Shown here one piece after another: positions 7 through 57,000 of a stretch of 64,000 nucleotides of DNA (within the stretch, counting starts at the first letter, position 1; each line of letters starts with the position of its first letter). Position numbers and translations under genes: made by a program. The notes under the pieces are model-generated. The model ran no database searches, had not been told where the DNA came from, and was given only the letters and a program-made list of their open reading frames with translations. Source of the DNA: Lingula anatina (lineage: Eukaryota > Animalia > Brachiopoda); the NCBI GenBank assembly GCA_051362555.1, contig CM120641.1, positions 8,866,001 to 8,930,000 of the forward strand, given 5' to 3'.

Positions 7-999
7 CAGGGTTCCTTTTTGCGCCATTGGCGCGCACAGATTTGTAATGACGCACTTTTTCAATAGCAGTGCGTCCCAAGGGTGCATCAAAAATAAATAA
101 ATTTAAAAAAAGGAGTTTGTTTGTTCAACATATTTTAAACTGTTAAAATTGTGTATTTTTAAACCCACCAAAATTTTACTAAACTTGGAACAAGTGTCAG
201 TCGGGAAAACCGAACTTCAAAGTTCTAGTCTTACGTCAACTGCGTGCGTTCTCTGCATGGAGAGTACCTTCTCTGGGTAGAGAGTACACCGGAAGTTCAG
301 AGATGCCCGCGCCAAAAGTAAAGCAGCCGAAGCTTTCGTTTTTTTGGCATACGAGTAATGTACCAGATAGCGGACATACTAGTGGTAAAGTACCAGATAG
401 GGAGCCTCCACTAACTTCCGTTAAGAAGTTTCAGCAAAGTTGGCTGCAGAGATTCCCGTGGCTGCGCTTCGACAAGGAAAAGTCAACCACGTGGTGTGCA
501 CCATGCAAAAAGGCGGGCAAACGTAATACCATGGCCCTGGGGGTATCGTCCAACCTTCTCACCAGTACGCTCACCCGCCACGTTGGAATGACCAACCATG
601 TATGCGCTATCCAGTAACTTAAATAAATTTACTCTGGTTCGAATTCAATTAAAAAATGAGTGATTTTAACTTAAAAGTGTTTCCACGTGTGCAGCCTACT
701 TAGAGATGTACGCACTCGTACAGGGAGTTGAAATTATTTTGAGTTTCTTGTGCATTTGGCCTTGAGCAAGGTACTACGTTTTTGGTGGGATAAGCAGTCA
801 ATTAACCATATAATTATGTCTTCCATTTCTATTTGTGTTGTTTTGAATACAATTTGGTACTAGTAGTTTATTGCCAAGTTAATGTACTGTATGATGTAGA
901 AATCATTATGCAAAGTAATGGGATTGCATTTTAGTCATTTTAGTTTGAGTATCACTGATTGTTATTATGGACAAAATGATTAGTGAATTTTTAAGTGTC

Positions 1000-4001: not shown

Positions 4002-4913
4002 CTTTAAAGACTTCTCCAAAGCCACCACTTCCAAGAGAATTTTCGCTGCAGTATTCCTTCATCTTTTCAACACTCATGTACTCAAGCACTGTCCCACTAT
4101 CCCAACTGTCTTCTGCTACAGGTGGGCTGGGCATAGAATCCTGTGCTTGCTCTGGGAACTTAAGGCTACTCTCATCTTCAGGGTGGCTAACTAACAGCAT
4201 ATGATGTTGTCCATCACCCCTTTCCAAGGGAGTGCATGCAGGATGTGTATCAACATCGTCTACTTTTGGACTAATGGACAATTTGGCCATTATGTGCTCC
4301 AGACCTAAACTGTCGATAAGTCTCAAATAATCTTCAGAGAACTCTTTATGCATTTTGGACTTAATATCATTTCTGTGAATTTGTTCCATCAATTGCTGCA
4401 GCCTGCTGTCATCAGTTTCAGAAATGATATCTTTTTTTAACATAGCAGTGAACAACTGAAGAGGTGAATCAATGTTATCTTTTTCTTGGCCCTTAATTTC
4501 ATCTAAAAGAAGGTATTTCATATTATTCAAATCATCAGAAGTCAGCATTTTAGAAACAGAGAACAAAGTAAATATATGTTTGCTAAATGGTTTGCAGTCT
4601 TTGCTTTGCAGCAGAATTCCATGGTTACTGTAAAAGTCCTTTATTTTCTTTACAAGATCCTTTCTCTCAATCTGTTCTAAGCATAGCACCAGCAGTGTGA
4701 AATGACTGCATTCAAGCAAATATCTTTTTTCCATTTCCTCAAAAAGCTTTCTAGGTTTTACAATGTCCTGGAGGACACCAGCACTAATGAAGTCTGTCAT
4801 GAGAAATTTGAGTCCTTCTACATCCTTTTCTCCCAATTGTGAAGCTACATCGTTCAACAGCCATCTGTAGTCAGCTAATGATAGTGTTTTCTTATCCAAG
4901 TGGGGTTCTTCAG
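4002..4913 (-). CDS. Exon encoding two tandem death effector domains, a linker and a kinase glycine-rich loop
   Basis: DED1 YRWLLNDVASQLGEKDVEGLKFL...LFEEMEKR...IERKDLVKKI has the FL and RxDL motifs. DED2 is LFSVSKMLTSDDLNNMKYLL...SPLQLFTAMLKKDII...IHRNDI. The exon ends YCSENSLGSGGFGEVFKG, resembling IRAK/Pelle subdomain I (FSxxNxxGxGGFGxVYKG). Canonical splice sites lie on both sides. Confidence 0.9.
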
Positions 4914-7900
4914 CTGAATAGGATAATCAACAAGGCAGCAAAGCTGTCAAATGTACAGACAAAAAACAGGAAATAACTATGCACAAAATAGGCTACTGTC
5001 AATTCTGTTGCAAAAATACATTATGTTAAATTGCAAATTCAACATCAAATTTTAATTATCCTCAACAGGTAATACCAATGTAATTAAAATATGTGACAAG
5101 TTTACACTTTGAAAATGTATAACTTCCAGAAAAAGAAGTTCCTTAGACTGCTTTTCCAACTCAGACTGCATTTTAGTCCTGTATTTCTTTTTTGAAAGTT
5201 TGGCAATCATAAGTAACATGGTTTTCCCCATAATGGTCATCATGGCAGCAGCACCCAAAATTGTGTTTTCTTCTATTCTGATGCAATATTACATAATGGT
5301 GAACAGCATAATAACTCAATTTTAATAATAAAATATACGTATCATGGATTTTCAGAAAATGTGACTAGCATGGGTCTTCAAGCCTGTGGAACTTCAAAGT
5401 CACACCTTGAAAATGCCAATATGTGAAAAATTAAATTTTCACAAAATAACTGTTTAACTGGCAGCAAGAATTACCAAACAGACTGTATTTCCTACTGAAG
5501 CTGTGTTTTAGTCCCATGTTTCTTTCCTGTAAGTTTGAGAACAGTAAATGACATGGTTTTTCTTAAATGGTCATCATGGAAGCAGTGACCAAAATAGTTT
5601 TTTTTTTTCAAATTTTGATGCAATATTACATAATGCTTAACAGCATAATGACCATCAACTTTAATAATAAAATATTAGTATTATGGATATTCAGAAAATG
5701 TGACTAGCAAAGGTCTTCAGGCCCATGGAACTTCAAAGTCACAACTTGAAAATGCCAAAATGTAAACAAGACAGCACTGTTCTGAAATGTTTTTTTTTTC
5801 CATTTTTAACAATTTTTAACATAAAACAAAATTATCAGTTTTCTGCTGTTTTTATATGATAAACTAAGAAAATTGATGAGATGGGAAAAATATCAACAGA
5901 GCAGTGTTAAATGTCCAATCTCTTCCATTCTGAGATTCTGAACATAGTGAATGATTGAATCTGACAAACTGCAATGATATGAGTTTATTTCCATTTTTGA
6001 AACTTTATTACACAATACATGATAACAAGTTTACCATCATTTTTACATAATCAACTAATAATGTTGTAAAATTGCAGGAAATGCCAAACAAACACTTTTA
6101 CATATCTTATTAGTTCAATAATGAAACTGTTTACATGCCTAAGAATTAAATCTGAGGAAATGTGAAAAAACTGCATTTCTTTAAAATAATGGCCCGATTA
6201 TGCTGATTTTTGAACTCAACCTGCGTTTTAGCAGGAATGACCACTCCTGTGAGTTTAATGACAATTGGCCTATCTGTTTTTCTTATATTGTGTTTACAGT
6301 GTTGCATATATGCTGAAAAGTGAAAAAAAAGCATAACTACTAAAATAGTGGCCCGATCATGCCGATTTTCGGACTTGACCTGCATTTTATGAATATTCAT
6401 CAGCTCTGTAAATATACAGCCAAAAAGTAAAACTGCCTTCCACTTATCGTGTTTACAATGAAAGTGCATGGCGCCGGCGACAGCGACAGCGATGGCAACG
6501 ACGACGACAACAGACACAGGTGATGGCAAAATGGACAGACACATCTGTACATATTAACTGTACTGTTTGAGAACAGTAAGTGACATGGTTTTTCTTAAAT
6601 GGTCATCATGGGAGCAGTGCCCAAAATAGGTTTTTTTCAAATTTTGATGCAATATTACATAATGTTTAACAGCATAATGATCATCAATTTTTAATAATAA
6701 AATATTAGTATCATGGACAAATAGTAAACGTGACTAACAAAGGTTTTTAGGCCGATGGAACTTCAAAGTCACACCTTCAAAATGCCAAAATGTAAACAAG
6801 ACTGCACTGTTCTAAAATGGGTTTATTTCCATTTTTAACACTTTTTTAACATAAAACAAAATTAATAGGTTACTGCCATTTTTATAAGATCAACTAAGAA
6901 AATTGATGAGATGTGAAAAATATCAATAGAACAGTGTTAAATGTCCAATTTCTTCCATTCTGAGATTCTGAACATAGTGAATGATTAAATCTGACAAACT
7001 GCAATGATATGAGTTTATTTCCATTTTTGACACTTTATTACACAATACACGATAACAAGTTTACCATCATTTTTACATAATCAACTAACAATGTTGTAAA
7101 GATGCAGGAAATGTCAAACAAACACTTTTACGTATCTTATTTCTTAAATAATAAGGCTATTAACATGCCTAAGAATTAAATCTGAGGAAATCTGAGGAAA
7201 TGTGAAAAAACAGCATAACTTCTAAAATAATGCCCCGATTATGCTGATTTTCGAACTCAACCTGCGTTCTAGTAAGACTGACCATTCCTGTGAGTTTAAT
7301 GACAATTGGGCTTACTGTTTTTCTTATATTGTGTTTACAGTGTTGCATATATGCTGAACAATGAAAAAAACGCATAACTACTAAAATGGTAGCCCGATCA
7401 TGCTGATTTTCGAACTTGACCTGCGTTTTAGTAAGATTAATTATTCCTGTGAGTGTCATGACAACAGGCCTAACGGTTTTCCTTAAAATGTGTTTACAAG
7501 GTTGCATATATCCTGAAAAGTGAAAAAACAGCATAACTTTCACAATAATGGCCCGATCATGCTGATTTTCGAACTTGACCTGCGTTTTATGAATATTCAT
7601 CAGCTCTGTAAATATAAAGCCAAAAAGTAAAACTGCCTTCCACTTATCGTGTTTACAAGGAAAGTGCACGGCGACGGCATCGGCATCGGCGACGGCGACG
7701 ACAGACGCAGGTGATGGCAATATGTACAGACACAATTGTGTCTGTACATAAAAATGACATAGGTGTGGTGTCACATGGTAACCTACCCGACAATGTTTTA
7801 AACTTTTAACTAATTTGCTAAATTAACGATAACTTTAATTTTCCCATCACATAAAATATGAAATTATTTCAAGGACACACAATATCAAATGCTCAGATCG

Positions 7901-10699
7901 AATTGATTTGTTCTGAATCCCTCAAGTAATGGAAGTTAAACTGACTGCATACATTAATATCTATCAAACACTAGAGGATCAGAGAGGCGATACCGCCTCC
8001 GGATATTGTACCACCAGCTGGAGTAAGCGCAATCGTATGGAAAACCAAAAAAAAAAAAAAAAGGGACACCACCTCCAGTCTTATGCTTAACAAGCTCTAT
8101 AAAATGAAATCAACAAGAGTTCTCAAAATATTAAAAAAAAAAAAAAAAGAAAAAAAACAACATAACTAAAAATGGTCCAATCATGCAGATTTTGGAATTG
8201 ACCTGTATTTTCCTAACATTGATCACTCCTGTGATTTTCTAGACAATAGACCTATTGGTTTTCCTTGAAATGTGTTATCATTGTTGCATCTGTAGTATGC
8301 TGACAAAAGAGTAAACCTTGGGCAACACTATGGGCATATCTCTGCTAGTTTTGAAGATATGAGGGGCAAGAAAATATGCAAAGTTAAGTTCTTGGTGAAA
8401 AAGTAGGTCAAAGGTCAATTTCAAAGTCACAGTATATGACTTCCTATTCAAGTTCAATAGTAACCATGGGAATTTCTTTGCCAATTTTGGAGATATAAAT
8501 GCCAGAAAACATGCAAGGTGCAGTTCATCATAAAAAGTAGGTCAAAGCTCAATTTCAAGTTCATAGTTAGATTGCCAGTATATGACTTCCTATTCAAGTT
8601 CAACAGTAACTTTGGGTGTATCTCTGCCAGTTTTCGAGATATAAAGGATAGAAAATTTGCAAAGTTCAGTTCATGGTGAAAATTAGGTCAAAGGTCAGTT
8701 TCAGGGTCACAGTTAGATTGCAAGTATATGACTTCCTAATCAAGTTCAATAGTAACTATGGTCGTATCTTTGCCAGTTTTGGAGATATGAAGATCAGAAA
8801 AATTGCAAAGTGCAGTTCATAATGAAAAGTAGGTCAAAGGTCAATTTCAAGGTCACAGTTAGATTGCAAGTATATGACTTCCTAATCAAGTTCAATAGTA
8901 ACTATGGTCGTATCTTTGCCAGTTTTGGAGATATGAAGATCAGAAAAATTGCAAAGTGCAGTTCATAATGAAAAGTAGGTCAAAGGTCAATTTCAAGGTC
9001 ACAGTTAGATTGCCAGTATATGACTTCCTGTTCAAGTTCAATAGGAACTATGGGCATATTTCTGCTAATTTTGGAGTAATTCACATTTTATTTTCACCAC
9101 TGAATCTTGCGTTATACTTTTTTATATAGCGCAACGCCTAAACCATATCGAAAACAAAAACGTGGACACCACCTCCAGTATTGTGCTTGACAAGTCCTAC
9201 AAATTGCAAAATTCAAAAGGTCTCTGGCATTTACGGTTCCAGAATTTGAGAGAGTTTTCAGTTTCATATCTAATGGCCGCTTCTCCCATAAAAATGCACC
9301 TATTGACCCCAAACTCTCAAAGATGAAAGGAGACCCTGATTGTAACCCCTCACCATAATATGAGAGCTTAGGTCTGTGTAGTTTCTGAAAATTGGTACAA
9401 ACAAATATTTTTTTGCAGAAAAGTCCCATTTTTAGAAAATTTTGGCCCGTTTGACCTTGAAATAGAGGTCAAAAGTCAAATCTCAGGGCATATTTGGAAT
9501 CTACACATATGACTTTCGGTCAGACTTCTGTAGTAATTTTTCCCATAATTCCTTCGGTTTGGGAGATATTTAGCATTGAATTTTCCAAAATTTTGACAAG
9601 GGTGCGTTTCAACGAGCGTCACGCCCAGGCCAAAGCACCGACTGAGACAAAAATACCAGGGGGTTCAAGTTGAGATTATATGTGACCTAAATCCAAGAGA
9701 TGGGGACACGGGTCCTTGCGGTCTAGGAGGAGAAGCGGTAACGGTGACTTGTATCCCACGACACCCTGCGGAGCCAACGGAGCCGGCGGAGCTCACGGAG
9801 CCGGCGGAGCCGGCGGAGCCGGCGGAGCTTACGGAGCCGTACGAGACGGGTCGAGACTAAAACCATGAGTACCGCCAGCGTACACGCTGGTGGTACTAAT
9901 AATGAGCTCATTTGCTTACAATATACTACTTGATAAATTTAAGGAATGTGTGCATGTGCACTTGCACGCACTTAACAAAAAGTGACAATACTTTTTCTAT
10001 ATAAAATAATGTTGCATTTAGTAAGCCAATGAACCTAAAAAGTTCATAAAAAGTTAATAGAACCCCATTATTGGTACCAGGTTATTGAAATCTGTACAGG
10101 GAGTATACCTTATCTATTCAAACCTACCCATAGTTTGATCAGCATCCATAGCTGGGCAAGTATCCATCATTTTTCCAGCTGGACTTTGAGCCATCCTGTT
10201 TGCTATTTTCCTGAGATCCTTCTCTTCAGCAACTGGGTTGTCTCCAAATATCTGATGAACAGCATGCACTGTTGAAATCTGTTCTGGGAGTCCCTCAGCC
10301 TTTACATCAGCTCCCAAAATAGCCAAGGGAATCAGGGTGTCATTTTCTAAATGTTCCTTCAGTAGGACCTGCCCACAGTATTTTTTCCATGCACCAAATA
10401 CAGGACTTATTACTATGATAATCCATTTTGTATTTTTGCTAAGTTTAGATAATGCAGTAAAGATGTTATGGCCAGGGAGCAAATCCCTGTCCTCATAATA
10501 ACCTTTCAAACTATACTTGGATTCTAAATCACAAACTAATTTCTTAACAAAAATTTCAGTTTTTCTTACTAGATTACAGTTCAGGCATTCCTTAGTTTTT
10601 CTGCAATTTTTGCCATTTTGATGATCCTGCAGAGATTCATAAATCACAGCAAAGTCAATAACAGGAACAACTTTGGGCGTTGTTCAAGAGCAGTCTCAT
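4002..10699 (-). CDS. TIR-DED-DED-protein kinase (IRAK/Pelle-like) multidomain innate-immune signalling gene; 3' part of the kinase not found in the window
   Basis: The TIR exon (acceptor at 10737, donor ATGG|GTAGGT after 10128, phase 1) joins in frame to the DED exon (acceptor TTCAG|CT at 4913, needs phase 1; junction G+CT=Ala). That exon ends at AAAG|GTAAGT after 4002 inside kinase subdomain I. The intervening intron is almost all repeats and no competing exon was seen. The ATG at 10699 is in frame only if one extra T at 10657-10658 is removed. Confidence 0.72.
4929..7754 (+). mobile_element. Helentron-type non-autonomous element (HINE family A), internally duplicated
   Basis: Starts AACAAGGCAGC with sub-terminal TGTACAGACA. 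Contains internal approximately 160-bp repeats, a (CGG/CGA)-type microsatellite and a terminal hairpin ATGTACAGACAC..GTGTCTGTACAT followed by AAAAA. The same family occurs at 15.8-18.3 kb and 32.3-33.4 kb. Confidence 0.7.
7967..9902 (+). mobile_element. Second HINE-like family (B) with approximately 146-bp tandem array
   Basis: 5' GTACCACCAGC (about 8009) is echoed in the 3' hairpin GTACCGCCAGCGTACACGCTGGTGGTAC. GTATATGACTTCC recurs at about 8432, 8578, 8724, 8870 and 9016. CGGAGC(CGG) microsatellite at 9768-9840. Confidence 0.68.
10128..10699 (-). CDS. Exon encoding a TIR domain (MyD88/TLR-type BB loop)
   Basis: Box1-like (Y)DFAVIYES, alphaA FVKKLVCDLESKYSLKGYY, box2 EDRDLLPG, betaC WIIIVISPVF, betaD LIPLAI. 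Acceptor TTCCAG before 10737, donor after 10128. Confidence 0.85.
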
Positions 10700-11131
10700 A
10701 ACTGGCCCAGCTTCTCAATTTCTGTTGATCAAGCAACCTGGAAGAAAACAGCAAATGTACTGAGCTTGTTCTAAACTTGTGATAAGTATGTTTCTGCATC
10801 TAATTTAGCATGTTAACCCTCTTATTAAGACTCACTAATTCCACAATAAATTATTTTAAATTAATAAGTAAATCAAGAAATTTTTAGTTTTAAAAAGCAC
10901 AAAAATACTGAGGAATACACAAGTCAAAAAATCACATATCAAATTTTGTATCAACTTCTGGCTTAAATGTGTTCAATAATTTAGTTAAGGAGCACCCCAG
11001 CCCAGTTACATTTTACTCGAGGTGACTTACTGTTCAGTTTACCACCCTCTGACCACCAAAAGCATCTGGTCTGTTTGATAAGTTACAAAAATTGCAAGTG
11101 CATGCTACAGGGTATTCAGCAAATTTACAAA

Positions 11132-11211: not shown

Positions 11212-11376
11212 CTTATTCTTCAGGTGCTCACCACACCCATTTAATTATGCCTGAAAAACTTCAGCCCCATCCAGTTGCAACTGAGCAAGAAAATGGACAC
11301 AGGTATGACAACAGGAGTCAACAGCAGGTAGTAGCACACTGAAGGTGGTTCAAAGCAATGGTTCAAAAACTTGGCC
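11212..11376 (-). other. Probable non-coding 5'UTR exon of the TIR-DED-kinase gene
   Basis: Bounded by TTTCAG| and AAG|GTAG on the minus strand. All three frames contain stops. Confidence 0.45.
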
Positions 11377-11733: not shown

Positions 11734-13863
11734 CAGAGATCGTAAAGTCTGGATAATCCTAGGACCAAAATTTAAAGTGTATTCATGCTCAGCTCTCATA
11801 CTTATTGTGAGGCAAAAATCAAGTAACCAGTAAACTCGTTAGCGTATGAGAGTGCGTAATTACGCGTTGTTTTGCTGTTTTTACGCATTGGCTGGAGCCC
11901 CAGCGCGTACCAATACGCACACCTTTGGCTTTGAAGATCGGCGAAGTTGACCAGTCCGTTGACTGTTGACGGTCAGACTCATGTTGAAAATGTCATAATT
12001 GATTCCCAAGTGTCTCATTTTTTTCTTAAGATATTTGAATTACCCGATTAAAACATGCTTCTTCTTTCACTGACCCGCAGAGGATGACGTAATCTTCTCT
12101 GATTGGTCATAATATGCAAGTTTTAGGTCAAAGCACGTGTGCCTCTCTTTAGTATAAACAAGGTATGAACAACGATGAAATGATCGTTTTTTTATTCACA
12201 TAATTGTTCAACATTTTAATTGAGCAACCATACGTTTAGGACCAATTTAAATCACTCGCCCAGACCAAATACTTTAGGCCAGTAACCCTTGTGACTTTTG
12301 TAGTTTTAGTCGTCAGAATAAATTTTTAGTCGCATTTGACGAGCGGGCGACCGGGAATTTCCAGCTCTGCTGATTACCAGTGATGACAAAATGACGAGAA
12401 AAAGGAAAAGCAAAGGAAAAAAACAACAGTCAATTAAAAGGTTTTGTCATGCAAGGTAGGCAAAGTTATTTACTAGAGATTTCAGAGTCCGACATACCTA
12501 CTTGCGATGGTTGCGTTTCGCAACTAGTTTTATCAGCCGGGCAACTAAAATTTAGCTGGTAGTTGCCCGGAAACGCAAGTGACTTTCGGCTGTTCACTTG
12601 CCCGGAAAATTTGAAGTGTAAAATTTATTATCACAGACAAAATAGATCGTTTATTATTGGCAGTCATTTGCCGGTTGGAAACAAAGTGGTTTGCAGCAAC
12701 CGGCTAGCTCCAGATTTGGCCAGCTTAGAAAACAGTTGAACTTGAAGTGCTGCGCTAACAAACATAAATAAAAATTATCTTTCAACAAACTGTGAAATAA
12801 TATTTCTAGTAATTATTTACAAATTGAAAGCAAAGGTTTAATTTTTATAAACAATTTAGTAAAACTTAAAAACGACGGGTGCCTAAATGTTCCCGACTTG
12901 ACCTATTTTTTGTCGGCATCAATTTTAGGGAGAAACACTAGGAAGAGTAAGAAGTATGAACATTATGATTGATTAAAATGGCTAAATACGTAAATTTTGT
13001 GTCCCTTCTCAAATAGTATACTAAAAAATGCTTGTTTGACAGAGACGGATACTAGGTGACTACTTGTCAGTGTCCAGACATTTTGGCGCCGTTCTCTATC
13101 TCTCCCTCTCCCAACTATTACAGAGCGCTTGTTTGACCTAGTTTTTTTAAAAACTTTACTAAGGAAGCAGTTAGGCCAGGAGCATTTTTAAATCTCAGTT
13201 AAGAATAGATTGTAAATTTTTGGCTATGAAGTGCAGTCGTACTTGTTGTATTTTGATTGTTTCTGTGGTAATTTAAAAGCAATGTAAAATCTCTAATAAA
13301 TTACATGTTATATTCCCCCCCCCACACTGATTTTTGTTTTCAAGCCAAAAGAGGAATGTTTTCCTTTTGTTACATTTACTAGGTAGCACCAGTTACTTTT
13401 ACTCTAGTCAAAGAAACACAGTATCTAGTCGTGACCTATGCGTGACCTGTCCATTTTGTTTTTGTTTTCTTTTTGTTAAATTGCAATAATAAAAGATTTT
13501 GGATAAAAGGATAGTGGGTTATTGTTATGAAAGTGAACTGTGTGATTGCATGATTATTAAGGGGCCGTAGCGATAGTCCGAAGGTTCAATAGTCCGAAGG
13601 TTCATTGGTCCGAATGTTCGCTGTAGAACCTTCGGACCAATGAACCCTTGATTAAAAAATCGATAAAAATGTTACCACTTTTCGGACCAATGAACCTTCG
13701 GACCAACGAACCTTCGGACTATCGAGACGCCCCCATTATTAATACACAAAATTACACCTTGATGAGCATTTTTTAATTTTACCCCTTCATTTTGAAAATT
13801 ACCCCTTCTTTTTTTGGGCAAGGGGTACGGTACTCCCTTAGAAAAATCCTACCGAGTGCACTG
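11734..13863. mobile_element. Cluster of fragmentary hAT-like MITE ends in intron 1 of the immune gene
   Basis: CAG-starting or CTG-ending CpG-rich termini near 11734, 11828, 12369, 12483 and 13863. Pairing and TSDs were not resolved. Confidence 0.35.
13561..13734. mobile_element. 174-bp foldback-like MITE, copy 1
   Basis: Termini GGGGCCG and CGCCCCC, with 16-bp GTCCGAAGGTTCA subrepeats inverted at the other end. 8-bp TSD ATTATTAA. Confidence 0.85.
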
Positions 13864-15828: not shown

Positions 15829-18322
15829 TTTTTATGTACAGACACAGATGTGTCTGTACATATTGCCATCACCTGCGTCTGTCGTCGCCGATGCCGATGC
15901 CGATGCCGTCGCCGATGCCGTGCACTTTCCTTGTAAACACGATAAGTGGAGGACAGTTTTACTTTTTGGCTTTATATTTACAGAGCTGATGAATATTCAT
16001 AAAACGCAGGTCAAGTTCGAAAATCAGCATGATCGGGCCATTATTGTAGAAGTTATGCTGTTTTTTCTTTTTTCAGCATATATGCAACCCTGTAAACACA
16101 TTTTAAGGAAATCCGTTAGGCCTGTTGTCATGAAACTCACAGGAGTAATCAATCTTACTAAAACGCAGGTCAAGTTCATAAATCAGCATGATCGGGCAAC
16201 TATTTTAGTAGTTATGCTGTTTTTTCATTTTTCAGCATATATGCAACACTGTAAACACAATATAAGAAAAACAGATAGGCCAATTGTCATTAAACTCACA
16301 GGAGTGGGCAATCTTACTAAAACACAGGTTGAGTTCGAAAATCAGCATAATTGGGCCATTATTTTAGAAGTTATGCTGTTTTTTCACATTTCCTCAAATT
16401 CAACTCTTAGGCATATTAACAGTCTCATTATTGAACTAATAAGATACATAAAAGTGTTTGTTTGACATTTCCTGCATGTTTACAACATTGTTAGTTGATT
16501 ATGTAAAAATGATGGTAAACTTGTAATCATGTATTGTGTAATAAAGTGTCAAAAATGGAAATAAACTCATATCATTGCAGTTTGTCAGATTCAATCATTC
16601 ACTTTGTTCAGAATCTCAGAATGGAGGAAAATGGACATTTAACACTGTTCTTTTGATATTTTCCCCATCTCATCAATTTTCTTAGTTGATCATAAAAAAA
16701 TTGCAGTAAACTGTTTATTTTGTTTTATGTTTAAATAGTGTTAAAAATGGAAATAAACCCATTTCAGAACAGTGCTGTCTTGTTCATTTTTCAGCATATA
16801 TGCAACACTGTAAACACAATATAAGAAAAACAGATAGGCCAATTGTCATTAAACTCACAGGAGTGGTCAGTCTTACTAAAATGTAGGTTGAGTTCGAAAA
16901 TCAGCATAATCGGGGCATTATTTTAGAAGTTATGCTGTTTTTTCACATTTCCTCAGATTCAACTCTTAGGCATGTTAACAGTCTCATTATTGAACTAATA
17001 AGATATGTAAAAGTGTTTGGTTGACATTTCCTGCATCTTTACAACATTATTAGTTGATTTTGTAAAAATGATGGTAAGCTTGTTATCTTGTATTGTGTAA
17101 TAAAGTTTCAAAAATGGAAATAAACTCATATCATTGCAGTTTGTCAGATTCAATCATTCACTATGTTCAGAATCTCAGAATGGAGGAAATTGGACATTCA
17201 GCACTGTTGTATTGATATTTTTCCCATGTCATCAATTTTCTTAGTTGATCGTATAAAAATGGCAGTAACCTGTTAATTTTGTTTTATGTTAAAAAAAATT
17301 GTTAAAAAAAAAAAAAAAAAACCATTTCAGAACAGTGCTGTCTTGTTTACATTTTGGCATTTTCAAGTTGTGACTTTGAAGTTCCATGGGCCTGAAGACC
17401 TTTGCTAGTCACATTTTCTGAATATCCATGATACTAATATTTTATTATTAAAAATTGATGGTCATTATGCTGTTAAACATTATGTAATATTGCATCAAAA
17501 TTTGAAAAAAACCTATTTTGGGCACTGCTCCCATAATGACCATTTAAGAAAAACCATGTCACTTACTGGTCTCAAACAATACAGTAAATATGCACAGATG
17601 TGTCTGTACATATTGCCATCACCTGCGTCTGTCGTCGCCGTCACTGTCTCTGTCGCCGACGCCATGCACTTTCATTGTAAACACGATAAGTGGAAGGCAG
17701 TTTTACTTTTTGGCTATATATTTACAAAGCTGATGAATATTCATAAAACGCAGGTCATGTTCGAAAATCAGCATGATCGGGGCAACTATTGTAGTAGTTA
17801 TGCTTTTTTTGTTGTTGTGACTTTGAAGTTCCATGGGCCTGAAGACCTTTGCTAGTCACATTTTCTGAATATCCATAATACTAATATTTTATTATTAAAA
17901 TTGATGGTCATTATGCTGTTAAACATTATGTAATATTGCATCAAAATTTGAAAAAAACGTGCTGCTGCCATGAGGACCATTATGGGAAAACCATGTTACT
18001 TATGATTGCCTTGAGTTTCACGACAACAGGCCTATCGGTTTTCCTTGAAATGTGTTTACAGTGTTGCATATATGTTGAAAAGTGAAAAAACAGCATAACT
18101 TCTACAATAATGGCCCGATCATGCTGATTTTCGAACTTGACCTGCGTTTTATGAATATTCATCAGCTCTGTAAATATAAAGCCAAAAAGTAAAACTGCCC
18201 TCCACTTATCGTGTTTACAAGGAAAGTGCACGGCATCGGCATCGCCATCGCCATCGCCATCGGCGACGACAGACCCAGGTGATGGCAATATGTACAGACA
18301 CATCTGTGTCTGTACATAAAAA
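15829..18322. mobile_element. Composite of HINE family A: long minus copy (15829-about 17957) joined to a short plus copy (about 17960-18322)
   Basis: Both outer ends carry the TGTACAGACAC/GTGTCTGTACA hairpin and microsatellite in opposite orientation. The body is the reverse complement of sequence in 5500-7754. Confidence 0.72.
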
Positions 18323-19909: not shown

Positions 19910-22900
19910 TCAATACTCTGGATAAAACTGCAAAAACTGAATCAGTCGCTGTGGAAGTGGCAGCTGGAGTACTTCATCTTCTGCAAAACACTGCAAGATC
20001 ACAGTACGGCACAGGCTCTGAAGGTTTAAGGGCTTTGGCAAGTTATAAACCTGGACATAAGTTATTGCATGTTGATCTGGGATGTTCATTGCCATTGCCA
20101 TTCTGCTTGCGCACCCCGAGAACACAGGCATGAAATTAGAGGGGCACATATGTTGACTGCATGTGTAGCGATGATACTGAACACAATGAAGCGGATCTGT
20201 GGTATTGGCATCAAAAACAAATATACTGCACATAATTGGCTGACAATTGCGAAAACGGGTTCTTTTCAATTCTTGGCAATTGCAAATGGTTTCTGTCATC
20301 ATTGTAACAATGAGTGAGCCATCTGGTGTGTACAAAAGTTCTCTCAGGTTAGGATAAAGTGAAGGCCTTGTGTCATCTGCTTTGTGATTGGTTGCAATAA
20401 TCTCCCATGGATTATTGCTGGCGAGATGTACAAGGCTCAGGCTGTTGTCTGTCCCTTGCTCAAAGTTGGTCACTGCAATGCGATTCCAGTGAAACCTGGG
20501 ATCAAAACTGAAGTAAGAGTCTCTGCACTGTAGCTGTACTTCATATATCATGGGGAACCCATTTCCTTTCAGATTGTATAACCGTAAGACATAGCTAGCT
20601 GGCCCCCTGACTGAACTTGGTGGTAGAGGGGTTTTTACCAAGCACTTGGTGCCATCTGGACTAATAGACCCTCGAAGGGATTCGTTTACAAATTCCACAG
20701 TGTGTTTACCAAAAACACCAAGAAATTTGTTGGTCTTTAAGTCAATTACACCAAATTGAGTTCCCATATTCCTAACTAGATGTAACACCACAATTCGCCC
20801 TTGAAAACACAAGACACTTCTAACGTGGAAATTCTGTATAGAGGACAGCTGAGCTGGGATATGATTGTATTCAAAGTGCTCTGCCATCTTGGTAAATTTG
20901 CTCCTTTTTCTGAAACTGAAGATGTGTGAGGATTTGTTGATGTTGATGATACCTTGGCGGTTGATGCAAAAAGCATGGCTACAATCTTTGTGGAGAGCAC
21001 CTTCACATGCCAAGACCTTCTCCTTGAAGCCTGCTGTATCTAAAACCATAAGAGAACTCATGAGAAAAAGTGAAAACAAACATCTGAAAAAAAAATCCTA
21101 ACGAAACAAAATAAGAGCTCATCTTTCCTTGCACTAAATACAATTTATTAACTAAAATAATTAAACTGCACTTTTCAAAATCTATGGCTGGAATTGCTAT
21201 CCCATGTTTCAAAAGCTGATATAGGGCATTCTCCAAATGACTCTGAAGTCTGGATGTCCATTTTTCTAAGACATCATTTCTTAGAAAAAAATAAAATAAA
21301 AAAATTTGACAAAAAAAAAACTTATGAAACAGCAGGCTTTTAAGTGATCAAGAAATCTAATTCAGAAGTAGCATTAAAGTCATACAGCCCAAAGTGTGTC
21401 AGTCAATTGTGAAAGAATCATACTGCAAATCACCCAACTGTTCACAAACCATTTTCATGTTAAAACTGTTAATAACTTATGTTAGCATGTTTAATGTCAA
21501 TCAGAATCTTAAAATCTTGGCAAAACATTGACATTACCACTACCAGAGCAATTCCTAGCACTAACATTTATCTGCTCTGGCAGTGGTAAATACTTTTACG
21601 GTGTGTTGGTTAATTTGTGGGTTATGTAGTTAATATGGGTGTTAGTACCTAAAGCAGATGTGGGGAAAACTTTGGAGGAACTGAAGGTCCAGAGGACCTG
21701 CACTACAAGAAATCTGCAGGTTCTCCTAATTTTTTTTTAAATTGTTATGTACTGTAATTCCAAATAAACCTTGCCGATCCACAGGACCTGTATTCTCAAA
21801 AATCTTGCCCGTCCTCTGGCTTTTCAGGCAGACATGACTGGTCAGACTGACAATTTCCCAACATATGACTTAAAGATCTTTGGGTATTGTTAGTAAATGC
21901 CTAATCCATTTATAAGGCCTGCCAATGGTTCACTTCATTACATCTCTCTTATAAGAAAAGGTGCATATGGTAATTAAAGAAAAAATAGACCCTTAAAACA
22001 GTCTCAGCTGGTTGTTTATAAAACATGGAAAAAAAATAAAGCCCACATGAGATTTTTGACATTTCAGCAGTGCAGATGAATAGATACTCCGTGGTATATA
22101 TTTACTATTTTAACAGATATCTATTGCTAGCTGTCTAGATCAATGTGTACTTACAAGAGGCCCCTGATATAAGATCTTGGGGTCAACTTGTATGCTTCTC
22201 TACAACAGAATGCAGAGCAGAAAAAGCCAACAAAATGGTGAGGTAATGCACAAGACATTAGGTAAAATGTACAAAAAACAAGCTGATATGTGTGCTACCT
22301 AGCTTGTGAGTTTGCCAAGTAACTTGCACATGCCTTCTAAATGATGTAGTTGAGTGAGATATGGAGAAAATGAAAAAGAAGTGTTAATTAATATATTAGC
22401 ATATATGCAGTACAAGTACATGAAAGATGTGCGTGTGTGTGCATGAGAGAGAGAGAGAGAGAGTTAAAAAATCAGTACAGTGAATAATGCATTGTCATCT
22501 AATCAATTAAGAACCGTGTCCTTTAAGAAGCAAAGAACCATTTCCCAAGATTCATGAAAATGATCTATTTGTGAAATACAAGTAAGTTGCTGTCTTGCAG
22601 TGGATTCACTGAAAATCAGATTAATCTATAATCTAATAGGCAAATTGAACTGAGACTCATTTGCAAAAGAGCAGACAATATCATATCACAAAAATTACCT
22701 GTAAGACACAATAAGTCTACATGACTGGAGTGCATACTGTATCATTGTTTTTTTCCCATCAATATTCCTCTTGTAAGTTCATTACTTTAATTCCATGGAA
22801 CTATTGCATTATCATGTGGTAATTTAACACAAGAATCTCCACATTAAATCTCCATATTGAATCTACAAAATTAATTTTCCACTCCCTTATTTGGCATTAA

Positions 22901-31357: not shown

Positions 31358-34300
31358 TTAGTCTGAAAAAAAAAATAGGTCATTTCATAAATCTGTTGAA
31401 TCTTGTACATGATAATATAAGCAATACAAATGGATATGCCTTTTAATGAAAAAAAAACTTTAAGGTACACAAAATATTATCCAATGAAATTATCAACTTG
31501 CACATTGCAAAAAGGAAATATTCTCACCCCAAGTGAAAATATTTTCATTCAGTTCATTTCCATGGAAGAAACAGATTCTTATAATTCTTGAACAGTAATT
31601 CTTGCCAAGTAGGTTAAACCACAAGATAATATAACTTGGGGTAGTAGCTTAACAGAGAGGGTCCAGTATCACTTACCACATTTGGCCTCTCCCCTCTTGC
31701 GAGTGTTCCCTATTTCTCTGCCATGCTGGTCCACACACCAACACTCCCCAGTACTGCCATGACACTGCTGTGCCTTGAAAAACCCATCTTCATCACACTG
31801 TGGCAGAAATGCACCTGACAGCATAACAAAGATGGTTATATATCTATCATAAATTAAAGGGAAACTACAATAGACACAGAATCAAATCTGAATTTCTTGT
31901 ACTGATCTTCAACTTGAGCTTTCTTCAAGTTTGTAAAATATGTTAGGTATAAATGATGCACAAATTAAATATACATACCCCTTGCAATCACATTTTCTTA
32001 CTCCCCCCCCCCCCCCCCAAACACGCACTGTTACATAATAAATAGAAATTTTCATTACAGAAAATGCTTTGTTTTTAGAGCACAAAATCATACCTGGCAT
32101 CAACTGTGGTTGTCCTCCTAGAAGAGTGGCCGGAGTTTTCTTCAGTGCTTCAAAACAAGGTGGGACTAAAAGAAAACAATTACAAGAAAATAAGAATATG
32201 TTTTCACCTTATAAGTATCAGCTCCAATTCTACATTAACAAAACTTTCTGCAATATCAATAAACAAGGCAGCAAAGCTGTCAAATGTACAGACAAAGAAC
32301 AGAAAATAAAGATGCAAATAAGTGAAAAATTAAATTTTCACACAAAACTGTTAAATTGCCAGAAAAATTTACCAAACAGACTGCGTTGCCTATTGAAGCT
32401 GTATGTTAGACCCATGTTTCTTTCCTGTAAGTTTGAGAACAGTAAGTGACATGATTTCCCTTAAATGGTCATCATAGGAGCAGTGCCCAAAATAGGGGTT
32501 TCTTCTAATTTTGATGCAACATTACATAATGTTTAACAGCATAATGACAATCAAATGTTATTAAAAAAATATTAGTAACATGGACATTCAGAAAATGTGA
32601 CAAGCAAAAGTCTTCAAGATCATGGAACTTTAAAGTCACACCTTGAAAATGCCAATACAATTGGCCAATCCGTTTTTCTTATATTGTGTTATCAGTGTTG
32701 CATTTATATTGAAAATAGTGAAAAAACAGCATAAATTCCCTCAAAATAGCCTAATCATGCCGATTATCGAACTTGACCTGCGTATTATGAATATTCATCA
32801 GTTCTGTAAGTTTCAAGTCAAAAGGTAAAATGGTTTTCCACTTATCGTGTTATCGGTGCTGCATATATGCTGAAAAAAGTGAAAAAACAGCATAAATTAC
32901 CTAAAAGTGACCCGATCATGCTGATTTTCGAACTTGACCTGCGTATTATGAATATTCATCAGTTCTGTAAGTTTCAAGTCAAAAGGTAAAATGGTTTTCC
33001 ACTTATCGTGCTATCGGTGCTGCATATATGCTGAAAAAAGTGAAAAAACAGCATAAATTCCCTAAAAGTGACCCGATCATGCTGATTTTCAGACTTGACC
33101 TGCGTATTATGAATATTCATCAGTTCTGTAAGTTTCAAGTCAAAAGGTAAAATGGTTTTCCACTTATCGTGTTATCGGTGCTGCATATATGCTGAAAAAA
33201 GTGAAAAAACTGCATAAATTCCCTAAAGGGGCCCGATCATGCTGATTTTCGAACTTGACCTGCGTTTTATGAATATTCATCAGTTCTGCAAGTTTCAAGT
33301 CAAAAGGTAAAATGGTTTTCCACTTATCGTGTTATCGGTAAAAGTGCACGGCGACGACGGCAACGACGACGACAGACGCAGATGATGGCTATATGTACAG
33401 ACACATCTGTGTCTGTACATAAAAACTGACAATGTTTTTTCAATAAAATAACTCATTTCGACTCGAAATCTTGGGGCATTTTTATAAAATGTATAGTCAA
33501 CACTTGACACTCCTCCAAAGGACAAGGTTGTTAAAAGCATGGCTAAAAACAACAAAAACTGGCTAAAGAAAATTTGTATCATTAATTTGACAGAAAGATT
33601 TCCAGACCTTAACTTGATGTTTTAAGTTAGGGTGTGAAAACTAAGGAATTTCACTTACCCACATGAGCAAAACAACAACACCATTCCTTGTCAGATAGTT
33701 TAGTGTCCTTGTTGGTGTCACATTTTTCCAGGAATGGCTTCATGCAATGTTCATAGCCATTGTTCTCTACATCATTCAGTTCAGCTGTGGTCAAGTAGGT
33801 GTCCTCATCCTTGTCCATCTTCTGGAACACGTACCCCACTGGACCAATGCAAGTGCAATCACCTGTGCAGACATAGTCAAGATCAACTTTATTATTTATA
33901 AACACAATTTCAAGATAACATTAAAATACTTTCCATTTTGATGTATTTATTTTACCATATAAACTGTACAAGTGTTTACTATGTATGACTTATTTTTTAA
34001 TGTCTTTCACTAACATGTTATCTCACTCATTAATATATGAACACTTACGGATTTGCAATATACGAACATAGATAAGAATTGCTACAAATATTACTTGAGA
34101 CCACTGTCAATAAAAGTTATGATCAAAAAACATCTATAATTTAGCATTTAAACCTCCTCTTACCTTCTTGACCCAATTCCTTCTTGACACTCCTCTTGTG
34201 CCTCTTTCCTCCATTCTTGTGTTTCTTTCCACCTTTCTTGTGCTTCTTTTCCTTCTCTTTGTGTTTCTCGCTGTCTGGGTGATGGTCTCTGTAGTCTTGG

Positions 34301-53130: not shown

Positions 53131-54020
53131 TAAGGTCTACACAAGTTACTTTTCCCGAGGCGTGTTTCCTATAAATGGATATCAATAACCTTACAAGTGA
53201 GATTTGAAAGGTAAACGGTGTTTTTCTGTCATGGTTATATATCAAGTTGGCAGCGACGGAAAATTTTCTGAAGCCAAATGTGCGCTTAGCACGACATATT
53301 TATAAAGATGACGAATGGCAATGTTTTTGACACACCTTTCTTATGCTGTTTCTTAGAAATGCCTGATGGCCACAGTAATCATGTCTGATTTTTACATTTC
53401 ATCAGTAAAACTTCATCAGCAACATAGGCAGGCTTCGCCATTTCATACACATTTGTTCCAGAGCAGTGCTTATAAGGATTTCCTGTGAAATATGGTTTCA
53501 TCGTTCATAAGACACGACGACATCTTATAAGTGTTGAAAATCAACGACTTGATGTTGGATTTTAAAAAAATGCGAGTGCATGGATTTAGACACCTTCCAG
53601 AACGGCTTAACCAGGTGTACTGTTAGCAAACCTTTCACGGTGTCAAAACACGTTCGATGAAATGTACAAAAAGCATGCAAACAAATAACTTATACATGTA
53701 CTTTGCTTGCTGCAGAAAACATTTCAAAGGTGCAACAATATAGGAGGAGTTGAGGTAAATTAGAATAGTCTGTCCGGCCTCAGTACACATGTTTGTATAC
53801 TTTCACATGTGATTGCTCGTAGCATTTCGTTCAAGAAATGTTTTCACAAGCATAGCTCTTGCTGAGATGCGAATAATACCACTTAGAGCGATTGTTTCTT
53901 TTTGCAGATGTCTGGACAAATTCAGTAATGACCTAAAAAGAGGGTTCACATGCTGAAGATCAAGCCACTATCCAAGGGACTTCAGCCGTAGTGACTGGAA
54001 CCAAGTTCCACGGAGTCAGA

Positions 54021-57000
54021 ATGGTTCCTGCGACGGCTGTGTTTGTGAACATTACAAATCACATAACACGCGAAGAACCCAACACTGTTGATGGATTGGA
54101 AACAATAGGGATGGATACCACCACTTTGTCAGGAAATGCCTCAAATAATGTGACAGAAATACCATATTTTATAGTACCTGGATATGTAACGGGTATATTG
54201 ATTGTCTTGTACTCGGCCATCACTGTATTGGCAATAGGTGGGAACTCTCTAGTATGCTATGTCGTATTGGCGTATCAAAGGATGCGAACTGTCACAAACT
54301 ATTTTATCGTCAACCTGGCAGTGAGTGACATTTTGATGGCAGTTTTGTGTATTCCGTTGACTTTTGTCGCAAATATCTTACTGAACTACTGGCCATTTGG
54401 CGCATTGCTCTGTCCTATTGTCTTATACGTACAGGCTGTGTCAGTATTTCTGAGCGCCTTTACTTTAGTGGCGATAAGCGTAGACAGATATGTTGCCATT
54501 ATTTATCCTCTTCGGAAGCGTATGACAAGCAAAATGGCCGTCATCGTCATTGCAAATATCTGGTTTCTGTCCCTGGTTGTCCCTTTACCAACAGCAATAT
54601 TGTCAAAAGTAGATGAAGATAACAAATGCTACGAACATTGGCATGACTGGACACAGAGGTTCCAGTATACGGCAGCAATCATGGTCTTACAATACGTTCT
54701 GCCTCTCTGCGTCTTAAGTTTTACCTATCTAAGAATTGGTGTTGTAATTTGGGTGCAAAAGATTCCTGGGGAGGCCCTCAATAACAGGGATCAAAGAATG
54801 GCAGCTTCGAAGAGAAAGGTAAGCAACGTGAACATTGTGCATGCTAATCCTAAGAGACAATAGATTCTTTTGACAAAATGCTTGGTTTATCCAATCATTA
54901 TAAATTCGGCTAGCGTTTCTTGTTTTAATTATATGATTCCAAGACAAGACAAGACAAGACCACCTCTATTAGAAATTGTATCATCTAGGGAATTTTTTCC
55001 TAAAAACGCTTATTCTCAGTTCCGAGTCACAAATGTGATTTTCCAGTGCGCGTCTGCAAGTGTTTTATCACCAGTTGCGCAACAGGTGTGGATAGTTATT
55101 GCAACCTAAACAAACGTTGGAAGCTTTTTAAAGGAATAACAAGTCAAATTATATGACACCCCTAAGAAGGGGGGGTACCTGTTTAATTTTACGTAAATTA
55201 TGTAATTGTAATCAAAGAGGATAATTTAACAAGATCAGTCGGGATCTACCGGTAGAATATATTATTATGTAAGTACGTAAATGGCCGAAGGCCAAAGGTT
55301 GCGCAGTGCATATAAGATGAAACTTTTACATTTGTTTAATTTATTTTTAGTTAAAATTCTCCAAACTAAATGAAATAGTATGTAGTTTTTATTTCAGTTG
55401 TCTTCTAAACGTAACAGGGCGCTGGATTAATGTGATTAATTTGATAGCGACCACTGTTTCTGCCTGACGCTAGCTATAGGGCCTAACCATCCATGTGCTA
55501 TGGCAAGTTGCGGTCATCTTGTTTTCTTTTTTCAAAATAAGCAGATTTCACGCTGTTACACACTTCTTAACAACCAGATATATATCATAGGGGTAATAAG
55601 TATGTGGAAAACACTGAGAAGCAAACTTTATCTGATAACGAACATTATATTTATGGCCATTTTATATAGTTAAAACCCAGGAATTTTCATGGAAAATGGA
55701 GGCCATCTTGGGTTTTCTCAAAATGCCAAAGAACGCACACTTTTTACCGACCATTAACATATATTATAGGGATATTGAAGCTGTGGAAAACACCGAGAAA
55801 CAAACATAATTTGATATTGGGCACTCTTTTTCCTAGTAGTAGTAGTTGATACCCATGTACGTGTACTCGCAGGACATCGGCGACCAAGGATACGTGCTTG
55901 TTACCACCAGATATGTATTGTTGAATTTGTTGGGATTAAAAGGGTGAGGAATCCACTGAGAAAAAATTCATCCGCCTGGCTATTAGCTGAGCTTACTGGA
56001 ATAAGTATATCCAAACGTTCCATTTTACGATATTTATCTAGTATAATCATCACACCCGTGTGTTCAAAATCGTCGCAGTCAATGTCTTAAATGTAATTCA
56101 TTTATTGAAATTCTAATGCACTTTGACGGTTGGCGTACCTTATCAGCTACGTTAAAGGTTTTAAATGCACAGAACATCTGAACCATTTGGAAACAGTAAA
56201 AACTGATAGACACCCATCCCAAGGATTGGCCATGTTTAATCTGTTAGGTTAACTTGAACCACACGCCTCTACCTGCGTGCTGACGCATGCGTTAAATAGT
56301 AGCAAGTTTTTACTTTGCTCAAAGACCAAAGTGTAGAGGGAATAAAATTACAGTGATAGTTATTGTTTTCCAGTGTGTTTCTATGCATATTTTAAAATTA
56401 AGAGCAGTGTAACCAATTTGTTACCTACATGGCCCTTTCTCCTGCAACCTAAACTGCTATATTTGCACAAGCATGGTTCTTTTATTGTTTGCATACATTC
56501 AAAATGCATTGCATTCTATGAATAAAAAGGTATTCTCAGCGTTAACTGTTCGATGAATATGCCCATCCCACATGATATAGACATTCTTCGGATTGGGTCT
56601 CACTTTTCAAATGCAGCTTCTCTGAAGTGTTAGCCATGTTTTCGTGTTAGAAACCAGGCGCAATATTTCATGTAAAGGGACAAGCATATGATTTTAAAGA
56701 CGCGTTTTTACTTCAATCACTTCTTATTGAACAAGGAAAAATACTTTTCCATCTTTTTTAACAAATATATACCATGATTTAACGTCGCCAAAATCAATCT
56801 AATTCATCACTCTCCTGACGAGCCTGGCCACCAGTTTGGCAACGTTTGGAATCACGGTCAGTGCTCGAAGTGATGACGGAGTTTGAAAATCCCATGCTTT
56901 AAGCATGGGTAAATGATTTTTTTAATTATCTTAGATCTTATGTTATGGCAAGTGCTAGGAAAGGAGGATCAAAGATTGGCTTAGTCAGAGAAAAATACTG

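What the first reader, a model, noticed from the sequence alone, without database searches (positions are those of the whole stretch)
4002..10699. TIR + tandem DED + IRAK/Pelle-like kinase in one gene: a candidate single-chain link between Toll signalling and death signalling
Seen: a TIR exon ending in phase 1 is followed on the same strand, after a repeat-filled 5.2-kb intron, by a phase-1 exon with two DEDs and a GSGGFG kinase loop in IRAK-like context. The splice keeps the frame open. Established: TIR adaptors (MyD88, which is DD-TIR) recruit IRAK/Pelle kinases through death domains, while tandem DEDs belong to caspase-8/10 and cFLIP and bind FADD. These modules normally sit on separate proteins. 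Inference: this protein could dock on a TLR or TIR adaptor through its own TIR, engage FADD/caspase-8 through DED filaments and signal through its kinase. I do not know a characterised protein with this architecture, although invertebrates have many shuffled TIR/death-fold proteins.
Basis: partly seen in the sequence, partly recalled or inferred. Interest (0 to 1): 0.92.

Follow-up and report, generated by a model that had tools for sequence, protein, structure and literature searches.

The report
TIR-DED kinase family carrying animal metacaspase
In a brachiopod, RNA reads of this gene or its sister copy join a Toll-type TIR exon to two death-effector domains and an IRAK-like kinase, and the sister copy and relatives in worms, molluscs, acorn worms and lancelets add a predicted metacaspase-like protease of a kind thought absent from animals, so the family likely packs immune and cell-death signalling into one protein, although this copy has a mutated TIR start codon.

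Summary
The exons are real. The window is Lingula anatina. The TIR exon (10737-10128) is spliced to the tandem-DED exon (4913-4002) in 35 reads from 3 of 4 runs, mostly from a sister copy. RefSeq continues the gene into a complete IRAK/Pelle/RLK-type kinase. Correction: the ATG at 10699 is out of frame. The TIR start is codon 10680, ACG in the window but ATG in 32 of 32 reads; 31 of 36 reads carry a stop at TIR codon 85. So the TIR is broken in most Lingula copies seen. The larger result: the sister copy continues into a RING-like finger and a His-Cys protease whose PDB hits are metacaspases, with no caspase among 12 hits. An annelid protein carries TIR-DED-kinase-finger-protease in one predicted chain. 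Relatives in molluscs, hemichordates and amphioxus keep the core with swapped N-termini (DED, CARD, DD, ankyrin), and 20 of 20 protease domains keep the dyad. Ten literature searches found no description; the main Lingula immunity paper could not be read. Function is inferred, not tested.

The parts
11212..11243 (-). 3' end of an upstream, apparently non-coding exon (predicted acceptor at 11375, not read-verified)
   Evidence: 27 reads in 4 of 4 runs leave at 10739 with loose ends matching 11214-11243 at 29 of 30 letters
10128..10737 (-). TIR exon, ends in phase 1
   Evidence: read depth confined to 10114-10742, minus-strand RNA in stranded run X1, loose ends at both borders
10655..10699 (-). 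14-codon upstream ORF from the ATG at 10699; overlaps the TIR start out of frame
10678..10680 (-). TIR start position: ACG in the window, ATG in reads (A at -3)
   Evidence: 10679 G>A in 32 of 32 covering reads, 4 runs
10186..10659 (-). TIR domain (residues 8-165 from codon 10680), BB-loop DRDLLPG, Cys-rich insertion after the first strand
   Evidence: Pfam weak; model and Foldseek; profile vs PDB; Atlas TIR clusters 0.91
10426..10428 (-). TIR codon 85: AAA in the window, TAA stop in most reads
   Evidence: 10428 T>A in 31 of 36 covering reads (X7 16/16, X8 7/8, X9 8/11, X1 0/1)
10192..10194 (-). First in-frame ATG (MAQSP), strong context; start of the sister copy's RefSeq model
4914..10127 (-). 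5.2-kb GT-AG intron with tandem (146- and 159-bp units) and dispersed repeats
4002..4913 (-). Phase-1/phase-1 exon: DED1, DED2, linker, kinase start
   Evidence: identical to XP_013382060 residues 1-267
4633..4869 (-). DED1
   Evidence: Pfam PF01335 residues 15-93; best PDB hits caspase-8 and cFLIP prodomains
4348..4569 (-). DED2
   Evidence: Pfam PF01335 at P0001 78-151
4002..4047 (-). Start of the kinase domain with the GSGGFG loop (4032-4015); the remaining kinase exons lie outside the window
   Evidence: P0001 Pkinase 252-535, 1e-38; tblastn finds no further kinase exon in the window

Best explanation
This is one of several Lingula copies of an apparently undescribed bilaterian family built as [TIR or death-fold module]-IRAK/Pelle-type kinase-RING-like zinc finger-metacaspase-like protease, which likely works as a one-chain immune and cell-death signalling unit; in this copy the TIR start codon is ACG, so the TIR would be made weakly or not at all. 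Shown: the exons, the spliced TIR-DED junction in same-species reads, the domain order in database models, and the conserved catalytic motifs. Inferred mechanism: the TIR docks on activated TLR or adaptor TIR assemblies and the tandem DEDs polymerise with themselves or with FADD/caspase-8. Crowding would then switch on the non-RD kinase and the Arg/Lys-type protease, which would cut signalling regulators or death effectors, with the finger possibly acting as a ubiquitin ligase. The N-terminal module is the swappable input and the kinase-finger-protease core the fixed output. In Lingula the TIR input is being lost in some copies (start loss here, a stop in the main read type) while a minority read type appears to keep it open.
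For: Junction reads. Sister copy XP_013402827: DED 1e-30, kinase 5e-38, Peptidase_C14 3e-6, and its model spans the same junction. Owenia CAH1794974 has a TIR-like N-terminus matching the window TIR (BLAST 4e-6; score 78, 0 of 5000 shuffles reach it), then a DED, kinase, finger and protease. Other N-termini on the same core: DED-DED (Glandiceps), CARD-DED (Gigantopelta), DD (two Branchiostoma), ankyrin (second Owenia copy). Kinase keeps VAIK, HMDIKPSN, DHG and a Tyr gatekeeper; its model ranks IRAK1 Z 31.2, IRAK4 30.1, RIPK3 24.1. The 20 family kinases group apart from 33 other hits (86/90). 20 of 20 protease domains among 156 fetched proteins keep SGH and D-x-C (about 17 loci); the profile's PDB hits are 10 metacaspase and 2 GPI-transamidase chains. 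An in-frame 6-nt deletion just after codon 10680 and a mild synonymous excess in the TIR frame (10 of 21 against 6.4 expected, p 0.07) fit past or present translation of the TIR.
Against: No AUG for the TIR in the window; 31 of 36 reads have a stop at TIR codon 85; both RefSeq models lack the TIR. The reads that show the junction, the ATG and the stop agree with the sister copy at 10 of 14 amino-acid differences and come from other animals, so they are not direct evidence for this locus. RefSeq starts this locus at 4800, inside DED1, and ends it just after the kinase, without finger or protease. ATG and open codon 85 were not seen on one read; the intact type is inferred from counts. The Owenia protein is a gene model, only one of its DEDs scores, and by phmmer its TIR is no closer to the window TIR (11.0 bits) than MyD88 is (16.7 bits), so the two TIR fusions may be independent. 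The RING assignment is weak. The synonymous excess is not significant. No binding, kinase or protease activity was tested.
Confidence: 0.62

Rival explanations
1. The window's copy is a decaying or truncated duplicate: it has lost the TIR start and, by its RefSeq model, the finger and protease, so it makes little protein or a DED-DED-kinase fragment. The family function rests on other copies. This can hold together with the family-level reading.
For: ACG at 10680; 11-12 upstream AUGs before the next in-frame ATG; model XP_013382060 ends after the kinase with an unrelated tail; kinase 281 of 294 identical to the sister copy but DEDs 171 of 204; few window-like reads (X1: 10 of 18 at 99% or more).
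Against: TIR, DED and kinase frames are all open with no stop or frameshift; window-like reads exist on the right strand and are spliced at 10737; the missing tail may be an assembly or gene-model limit, which could not be checked without the genome; the ACG may be one allele or a base error.
Confidence: 0.4
2. In Lingula the TIR exon is now 5' leader in all copies; the real product starts at MAQSP as DED-DED-kinase-finger-protease, a caspase-8-like death signalling enzyme with no direct Toll link.
For: Both RefSeq isoforms of the sister copy start at MAQSP; strong context there; two different TIR lesions seen; Glandiceps has the same TIR-less DED-DED architecture.
Against: 5 of 36 reads are open at codon 85 while 32 of 32 have ATG; only one stop among 21 differences, in-frame deletion, BB-loop proline kept; 11-12 upstream AUGs make MAQSP a poor scanning start; Owenia keeps a TIR at the same place.
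Confidence: 0.25
3. The protein is a decoy or brake, like cFLIP or IRAK3: its TIR and DEDs cap receptor filaments and its enzymes are weak or inactive.
For: DFG is DHG here and D-P/V/T/A-x in relatives; IRAK3 pseudokinase is structurally as close (Z 29.4); a review warns that a His-Cys dyad alone does not prove activity (PMC5756287, passages).
Against: Catalytic Lys, HxD Asp, Asn and the Mg-binding Asp are kept in P0001/P0002; the dyad is kept in 20 of 20 protease domains across five phyla.
Confidence: 0.12

Closest known systems
IRAK1/IRAK4/Pelle (and plant RLK/Pelle kinases)
   Same: Kinase fold ranks IRAK1, ScRIPK, IRAK4, IRAK3 on top; Tyr gatekeeper; non-RD like IRAK1 and Pelle (PMC3498205, passages); predicted link to TIR signalling.
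   Different: No death domain in this copy; TIR and DEDs sit on the same chain; finger and protease follow the kinase; best sequence hits in PDB are plant RLKs (1e-28) ahead of IRAK4 (1e-16).
Caspase-8/-10 and cFLIP
   Same: Tandem DED prodomain, best PDB hits caspase-8 1e-10 and cFLIP 3e-7; a C14 protease lies downstream in the sister copy.
   Different: A kinase and finger lie between DEDs and protease; the protease has SGH and D-x-C, not the caspase QACxG motif (motif recalled), and no caspase is among its PDB hits.
Metacaspases and bacterial orthocaspases (C14B)
   Same: Best PDB hits AtMC4 5e-8, yeast, plant and trypanosome metacaspases; Atlas neighbours are bacterial Peptidase_C14 clusters at 0.94; the Asp of the metacaspase 'ND' motif and the Asp of D-x-C are invariant in alignment A3.
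   Different: Found in animals, where two reviews state metacaspases are absent (PMC5756287 section 4; PMC12914765 passage); fused behind a kinase; D-x-C-H in only 3 of 20.
MALT1 / paracaspases
   Same: Animal C14 protease behind a death-fold module in immune signalling; Arg-type pocket predicted.
   Different: No Ig domains; D-x-C-R in 0 of 20; type 2 paracaspases are described as stand-alone domains of early-branching animals (PMC5978004, passages).
Lophotrochozoan caspases with kinase or TIR pro-domains (Krasovec et al. 2024, PMC11463336)
   Same: Kinase-plus-caspase and TIR-plus-caspase fusions are in print for Macrostomum, Eisenia and Metaphire.
   Different: Those are treated as species-specific true caspases with P20/P10; the accession prefixes of the Lingula, Owenia and Gigantopelta members here are not in its supplement. 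Their sequences were not compared with this family.
RIPK1/RIPK3
   Same: Kinase coupled to death-fold signalling at the FADD/caspase-8 junction; RIPK3 scores 1e-17.
   Different: Kinase is central, not N-terminal; structural Z 24.1 against 30-31 for IRAKs; Tyr gatekeeper.

Membership tests
IRAK/Pelle | N-terminal death domain | tested here: not met
   DED 4e-34, Death 0.25; some amphioxus relatives do have a DD
IRAK/Pelle | Tyrosine gatekeeper | tested here: met
   LMYPYM aligns with LVYEFM of the top RLK hit; feature from PMC3498205
IRAK/Pelle | Kinase fold of the IRAK/RLK group | tested here: met
   VIA Z 31.2 IRAK1, 30.1 IRAK4, 24.1 RIPK3 on the sister copy's model
IRAK/Pelle | Orthology to IRAK4/Tube or IRAK1/Pelle by phylogeny | not tested
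   No identified IRAK, Pelle or RIPK sequence was in the tree
Caspase-8/-10/cFLIP | Tandem DED prodomain | tested here: met
Caspase-8/-10/cFLIP | Caspase-type catalytic domain (QACxG, recalled) directly after the DEDs | tested here: not met
   Kinase follows the DEDs; protease motif is D-x-C in 20 of 20
Metacaspase / orthocaspase (C14B) | Caspase-haemoglobinase p20 domain with His-Cys dyad | tested here: met
   In the sister copy and relatives, not inside the window; model pLDDT mostly 80-94 over 690-820
Metacaspase / orthocaspase (C14B) | D-x-C-H motif at the catalytic Cys | tested here: inconclusive
   D-x-C-H in 3 of 20, D-x-C-F/Y/M in the rest, D-x-C-R in none
Metacaspase / orthocaspase (C14B) | Acidic S1 pocket, cleavage after Arg/Lys, calcium dependence, monomeric | not testable with these tools
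   Two invariant Asp at the expected places (their pocket role is recalled); activity needs an assay
Metacaspase / orthocaspase (C14B) | Placement among metacaspases in a C14 phylogeny | not tested
   Only an in-family tree was built
Paracaspase (MALT1 type) | DD + Ig domains and D-x-C-R motif | tested here: not met
   No Ig Pfam hit in family members; D-x-C-R 0 of 20
TIR adaptor domain | Flavodoxin-like TIR fold with BB-loop proline | tested here: met
   DRDLLPG aligns with ERDLIPS of IL-1RAPL2
TIR NADase (SARM1/plant/bacterial) | Catalytic Glu in helix C | tested here: inconclusive
   No Glu at the expected spacing in window or Owenia TIR by eye (position recalled); model too weak for placement
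RING E3 ligase | Eight zinc ligands in RING spacing | tested here: inconclusive
   Seven Cys and one His invariant in 7 of 7 rows; RNF4 RING 0.009 for a tandem construct, about 0.5 single; zf-RING_2 0.099 in 1 of 7; zf-C3HC4_3 0.001 in P0142

The most novel reading that the evidence does not exclude
Bilaterian animals have an ancient, overlooked branch of metacaspase-type proteases, welded to an IRAK-like kinase and a RING-like finger, that forms a single-chain Myddosome/DISC equivalent. Swappable TIR, DED, CARD, DD or ankyrin inputs trigger kinase, ubiquitin and Arg/Lys-protease outputs. Its TIR input is switched on or off between Lingula copies by start-codon and stop polymorphisms.
Probability: 0.4. 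Interest if true: 0.88.

Novelty: new variant of a known kind. Interest (0 to 1): 0.74.

Why it matters
Reviews state that metacaspases are absent from animals and that animal C14 proteases are caspases or paracaspases. A dyad-intact metacaspase-like domain kept in brachiopods, annelids, molluscs, hemichordates and amphioxus would revise that and point to a lineage present in the bilaterian ancestor. The fusion also puts TIR, DED, IRAK-like kinase and protease, which act as separate proteins in the Myddosome and the DISC, on one chain, giving a directly testable model of how invertebrates couple Toll sensing to cell death.

Tried and rejected
No indexed RNA holder was listed; only raw 2026 runs under the same species label were available. 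One search did not show the 4913 or 4002 loose ends because a repeat at 4929-4983 filled the table. A homolog search with the TIR exon among longer proteins found none of 668 candidates (weak evidence). Selenocysteine or readthrough of the three upstream TGAs was considered and dropped once reads showed an ATG downstream of them. An assembly frameshift linking ATG 10699 to the TIR was rejected: no such indel in reads. P0137 looks TIR-like by eye but does not beat shuffles against the window TIR (2790 of 5000); it was one of three rows in alignment A2. The kB-like site is not above chance (4 found, 2.7 expected). Foldseek and VIA on the full 1090-residue model were filled by kinase hits, so the protease fold was not searched structurally. 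The complex predictor was not available, so protease dimerisation is untested. Three look-ups of earlier scan findings were empty. Literature: searches (six accessions, 0 papers) found no description. Gerdol et al. 2018 on Lingula immunity is not held, and Gerdol et al. 2017 on TIR proteins and Hulpiau et al. 2016 were not read; any of them, or supplements not seen, could list these proteins.
Full report
1. Observation. The minus strand holds a 610-nt exon (10737-10128) and a 912-nt exon (4913-4002) separated by a 5.2-kb GT-AG intron with tandem and dispersed repeats. Both splice sites are phase 1, and the joined frame from codon 10680 runs 488 codons without a stop. The second exon has two DEDs (Pfam 4e-34) and ends in GSGGFGEVFK. 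The first scores TIR weakly, under Pfam's cut-offs. A model from a three-row alignment (pLDDT 59.7) shows alternating strands and helices and retrieves TIR structures first; the same profile hits TIRAP at 1e-8; the Atlas lists TIR clusters at 0.91. I take the TIR as real, with a BB-loop proline and no clear NADase glutamate (position recalled).

2. Identity. The DED exon is identical to residues 1-267 of Lingula anatina XP_013382060 (P0001, 568 aa, auto-named after a plant receptor kinase), which continues into a full kinase. A sister copy, XP_013402827 (P0002, 1090 aa, another scaffold), starts at the MAQSP methionine at the end of the TIR exon, crosses the same junction, and reads DED-DED-kinase-Cys/His finger-Peptidase_C14. 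The two are 281 of 294 identical in the kinase and 171 of 204 in the DEDs. Further Lingula loci exist (XP_013408857/862, XP_013412717).

3. RNA. Five of nine listed runs were laid, four per call. On 10040-11125, depth is confined to the exon and is minus-strand in the stranded run X1. 35 reads in 3 of 4 runs leave at 10128 into the DED exon, and 27 reads in 4 of 4 runs leave at 10739 into an upstream exon ending at 11212. The reads are 90-99% like the window and come from other animals. In the DED exon their amino-acid differences agree with P0002 at 10 of 14 places (only the 23 listed differences I entered), so most belong to a P0002-like copy. X1 also holds window-like reads (10 of 18 at 99% or more), but too few to list a junction at 10128.

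4. The start problem. Codon 10680 is ACG in the window and ATG in 32 of 32 covering reads. However, 31 of 36 reads covering TIR codon 85 have TAA. The five open reads (X1 1, X8 1, X9 3), with ATG fixed in the same runs, suggest a minority type with an intact TIR, but this is not phased on single reads and lesions under three reads would not be listed. Differences in the TIR frame are 10 synonymous of 21 against 6.4 expected (p 0.07; 0.03 without the two stop-linked changes; one three-read variant left out), and a 6-nt deletion near the start is in frame. The fallback start, MAQSP, lies behind 11-12 upstream AUGs. So the TIR was coding and is now broken in at least two ways among Lingula copies. 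For this locus the TIR-containing protein would need ACG initiation or a different allele.

5. The family. A search of 1.84 billion representatives with P0002 (best 150 listed, mostly plant kinases) plus one search yielded relatives with the kinase-finger-protease core. Named ones: Owenia CAH1794974 (TIR-like, DED) and CAH1796071 (ankyrins), Gigantopelta (CARD, DED), Sinanodonta, Glandiceps (DED-DED), Ptychodera, Saccoglossus, and three Branchiostoma species (DD in two). The Owenia N-terminus aligns with the window TIR (BLAST 4e-6; 0 of 5000 shuffles), giving TIR-DED-kinase-finger-protease in one predicted chain; a second DED there did not score. Whether the two TIR fusions are orthologous or parallel is open, since MyD88 scores as well by phmmer and the trees do not resolve Lingula with Owenia. 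Kinase and protease trees recover the same genus-level groups, so the core travels as a unit while N-termini change. In the kinase tree, 20 family rows group apart from 33 others (every fourth of 130 non-family hits) at 86/90; no IRAK or RIPK reference was included.

6. The enzymes. The kinase keeps VAIK, HMDIKPSN (non-RD), DHG for DFG and a Tyr gatekeeper. On the P0002 model (mean pLDDT 66.7; mostly 75-95 over kinase, finger and protease, below 50 in linkers and much of DED2) the closest chains are IRAK1 (Z 31.2, rmsd 2.6, 282 aligned), ScRIPK, IRAK4 and IRAK3, ahead of RIPK3 (24.1). The finger has seven invariant Cys and a His with weak RING similarity. The protease keeps SGH and D-x-C in 20 of 20 domains among 156 fetched proteins, some being isoforms or re-annotations of about 17 loci. 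A five-row profile hits ten metacaspase chains (best AtMC4, 5e-8) and two GPI-transamidase chains, and no caspase or MALT1 to E 5. Two Asp residues at metacaspase pocket positions are invariant, which predicts Arg/Lys cleavage (pocket role recalled).

7. Mechanism. Inferred from how TIR and DED filaments, IRAKs and C14 proteases work in known systems: the N-terminal module nucleates on a receptor or adaptor assembly, proximity activates the kinase and the protease, and the outputs are NF-kB-type signalling or death. None of these steps is tested. The RefSeq model of the window's copy stops after the kinase, so this locus may be a truncated duplicate; the finger and protease are shown for the sister copy and relatives only.

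8. Prior knowledge. Read: PMC11463336 (passages, section 6, supplement search), PMC5756287 (section 4, passages), and passages of PMC5978004, PMC12914765, PMC3498205, PMC2575513, PMC8195603 and PMC8662601. They document shuffled TIR and death-fold proteins in amphioxus, species-specific caspases with kinase or TIR pro-domains, and the statement that metacaspases are absent from animals. None of the passages seen describes this architecture, and six accessions return no paper. Subscription papers, above all Gerdol et al. 2018 on Lingula immunity, were not available.

9. Verdict. The finding opens onto an apparently undescribed bilaterian kinase-metacaspase family with exchangeable TIR and death-fold inputs. 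Interest 0.74: high for the family, lowered because this copy's TIR start is mutated, key reads come from the sister copy, function is untested and part of the literature was closed.

Noticed in passing
window 19913-21097 (-): 395-codon open frame with a C-terminal SOCS box (Pfam 8e-8) and no other Pfam domain; about 9 kb upstream of the TIR exon on the same strand.
   Followed up: no
window 53937-54860 and 57167-57709 (+): Two exons of a rhodopsin-type GPCR (7tm_1 8e-47 and 5e-11).
   Followed up: no
window 12353-12362: Perfect kB-type site about 1 kb upstream of the leader exon; the count in the window is not above chance. CCAAT- and CRE-like words lie near 12085-12110 (seen by eye).
   Followed up: partly
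window 4929-4983: Short intron repeat covered by hundreds to over a thousand RNA reads per run with unrelated flanks; a second copy at 32258-32316. Likely an abundant short dispersed element.
   Followed up: no
window 5145-7760, 15829-18307, 32308-33431: A roughly 1-kb repeat family with internal 159-bp units and long open frames without Pfam hits, in several copies and both orientations.
   Followed up: partly
window 183-617 (+): 144-codon frame with a weak zf-C17orf113 zinc-finger hit (4e-6), probably a transposon remnant.
   Followed up: no
P0008 and P0011 (Owenia fusiformis): Two close paralogs share kinase and protease (100/100 in both trees) but one starts with TIR-DED and the other with ankyrin repeats: a direct case of N-terminal swapping.
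   Followed up: partly
P0001, P0005: RefSeq names these animal proteins after plant receptor kinases because their best sequence hits are RLKs, which probably hides the family in annotation.
   Followed up: partly
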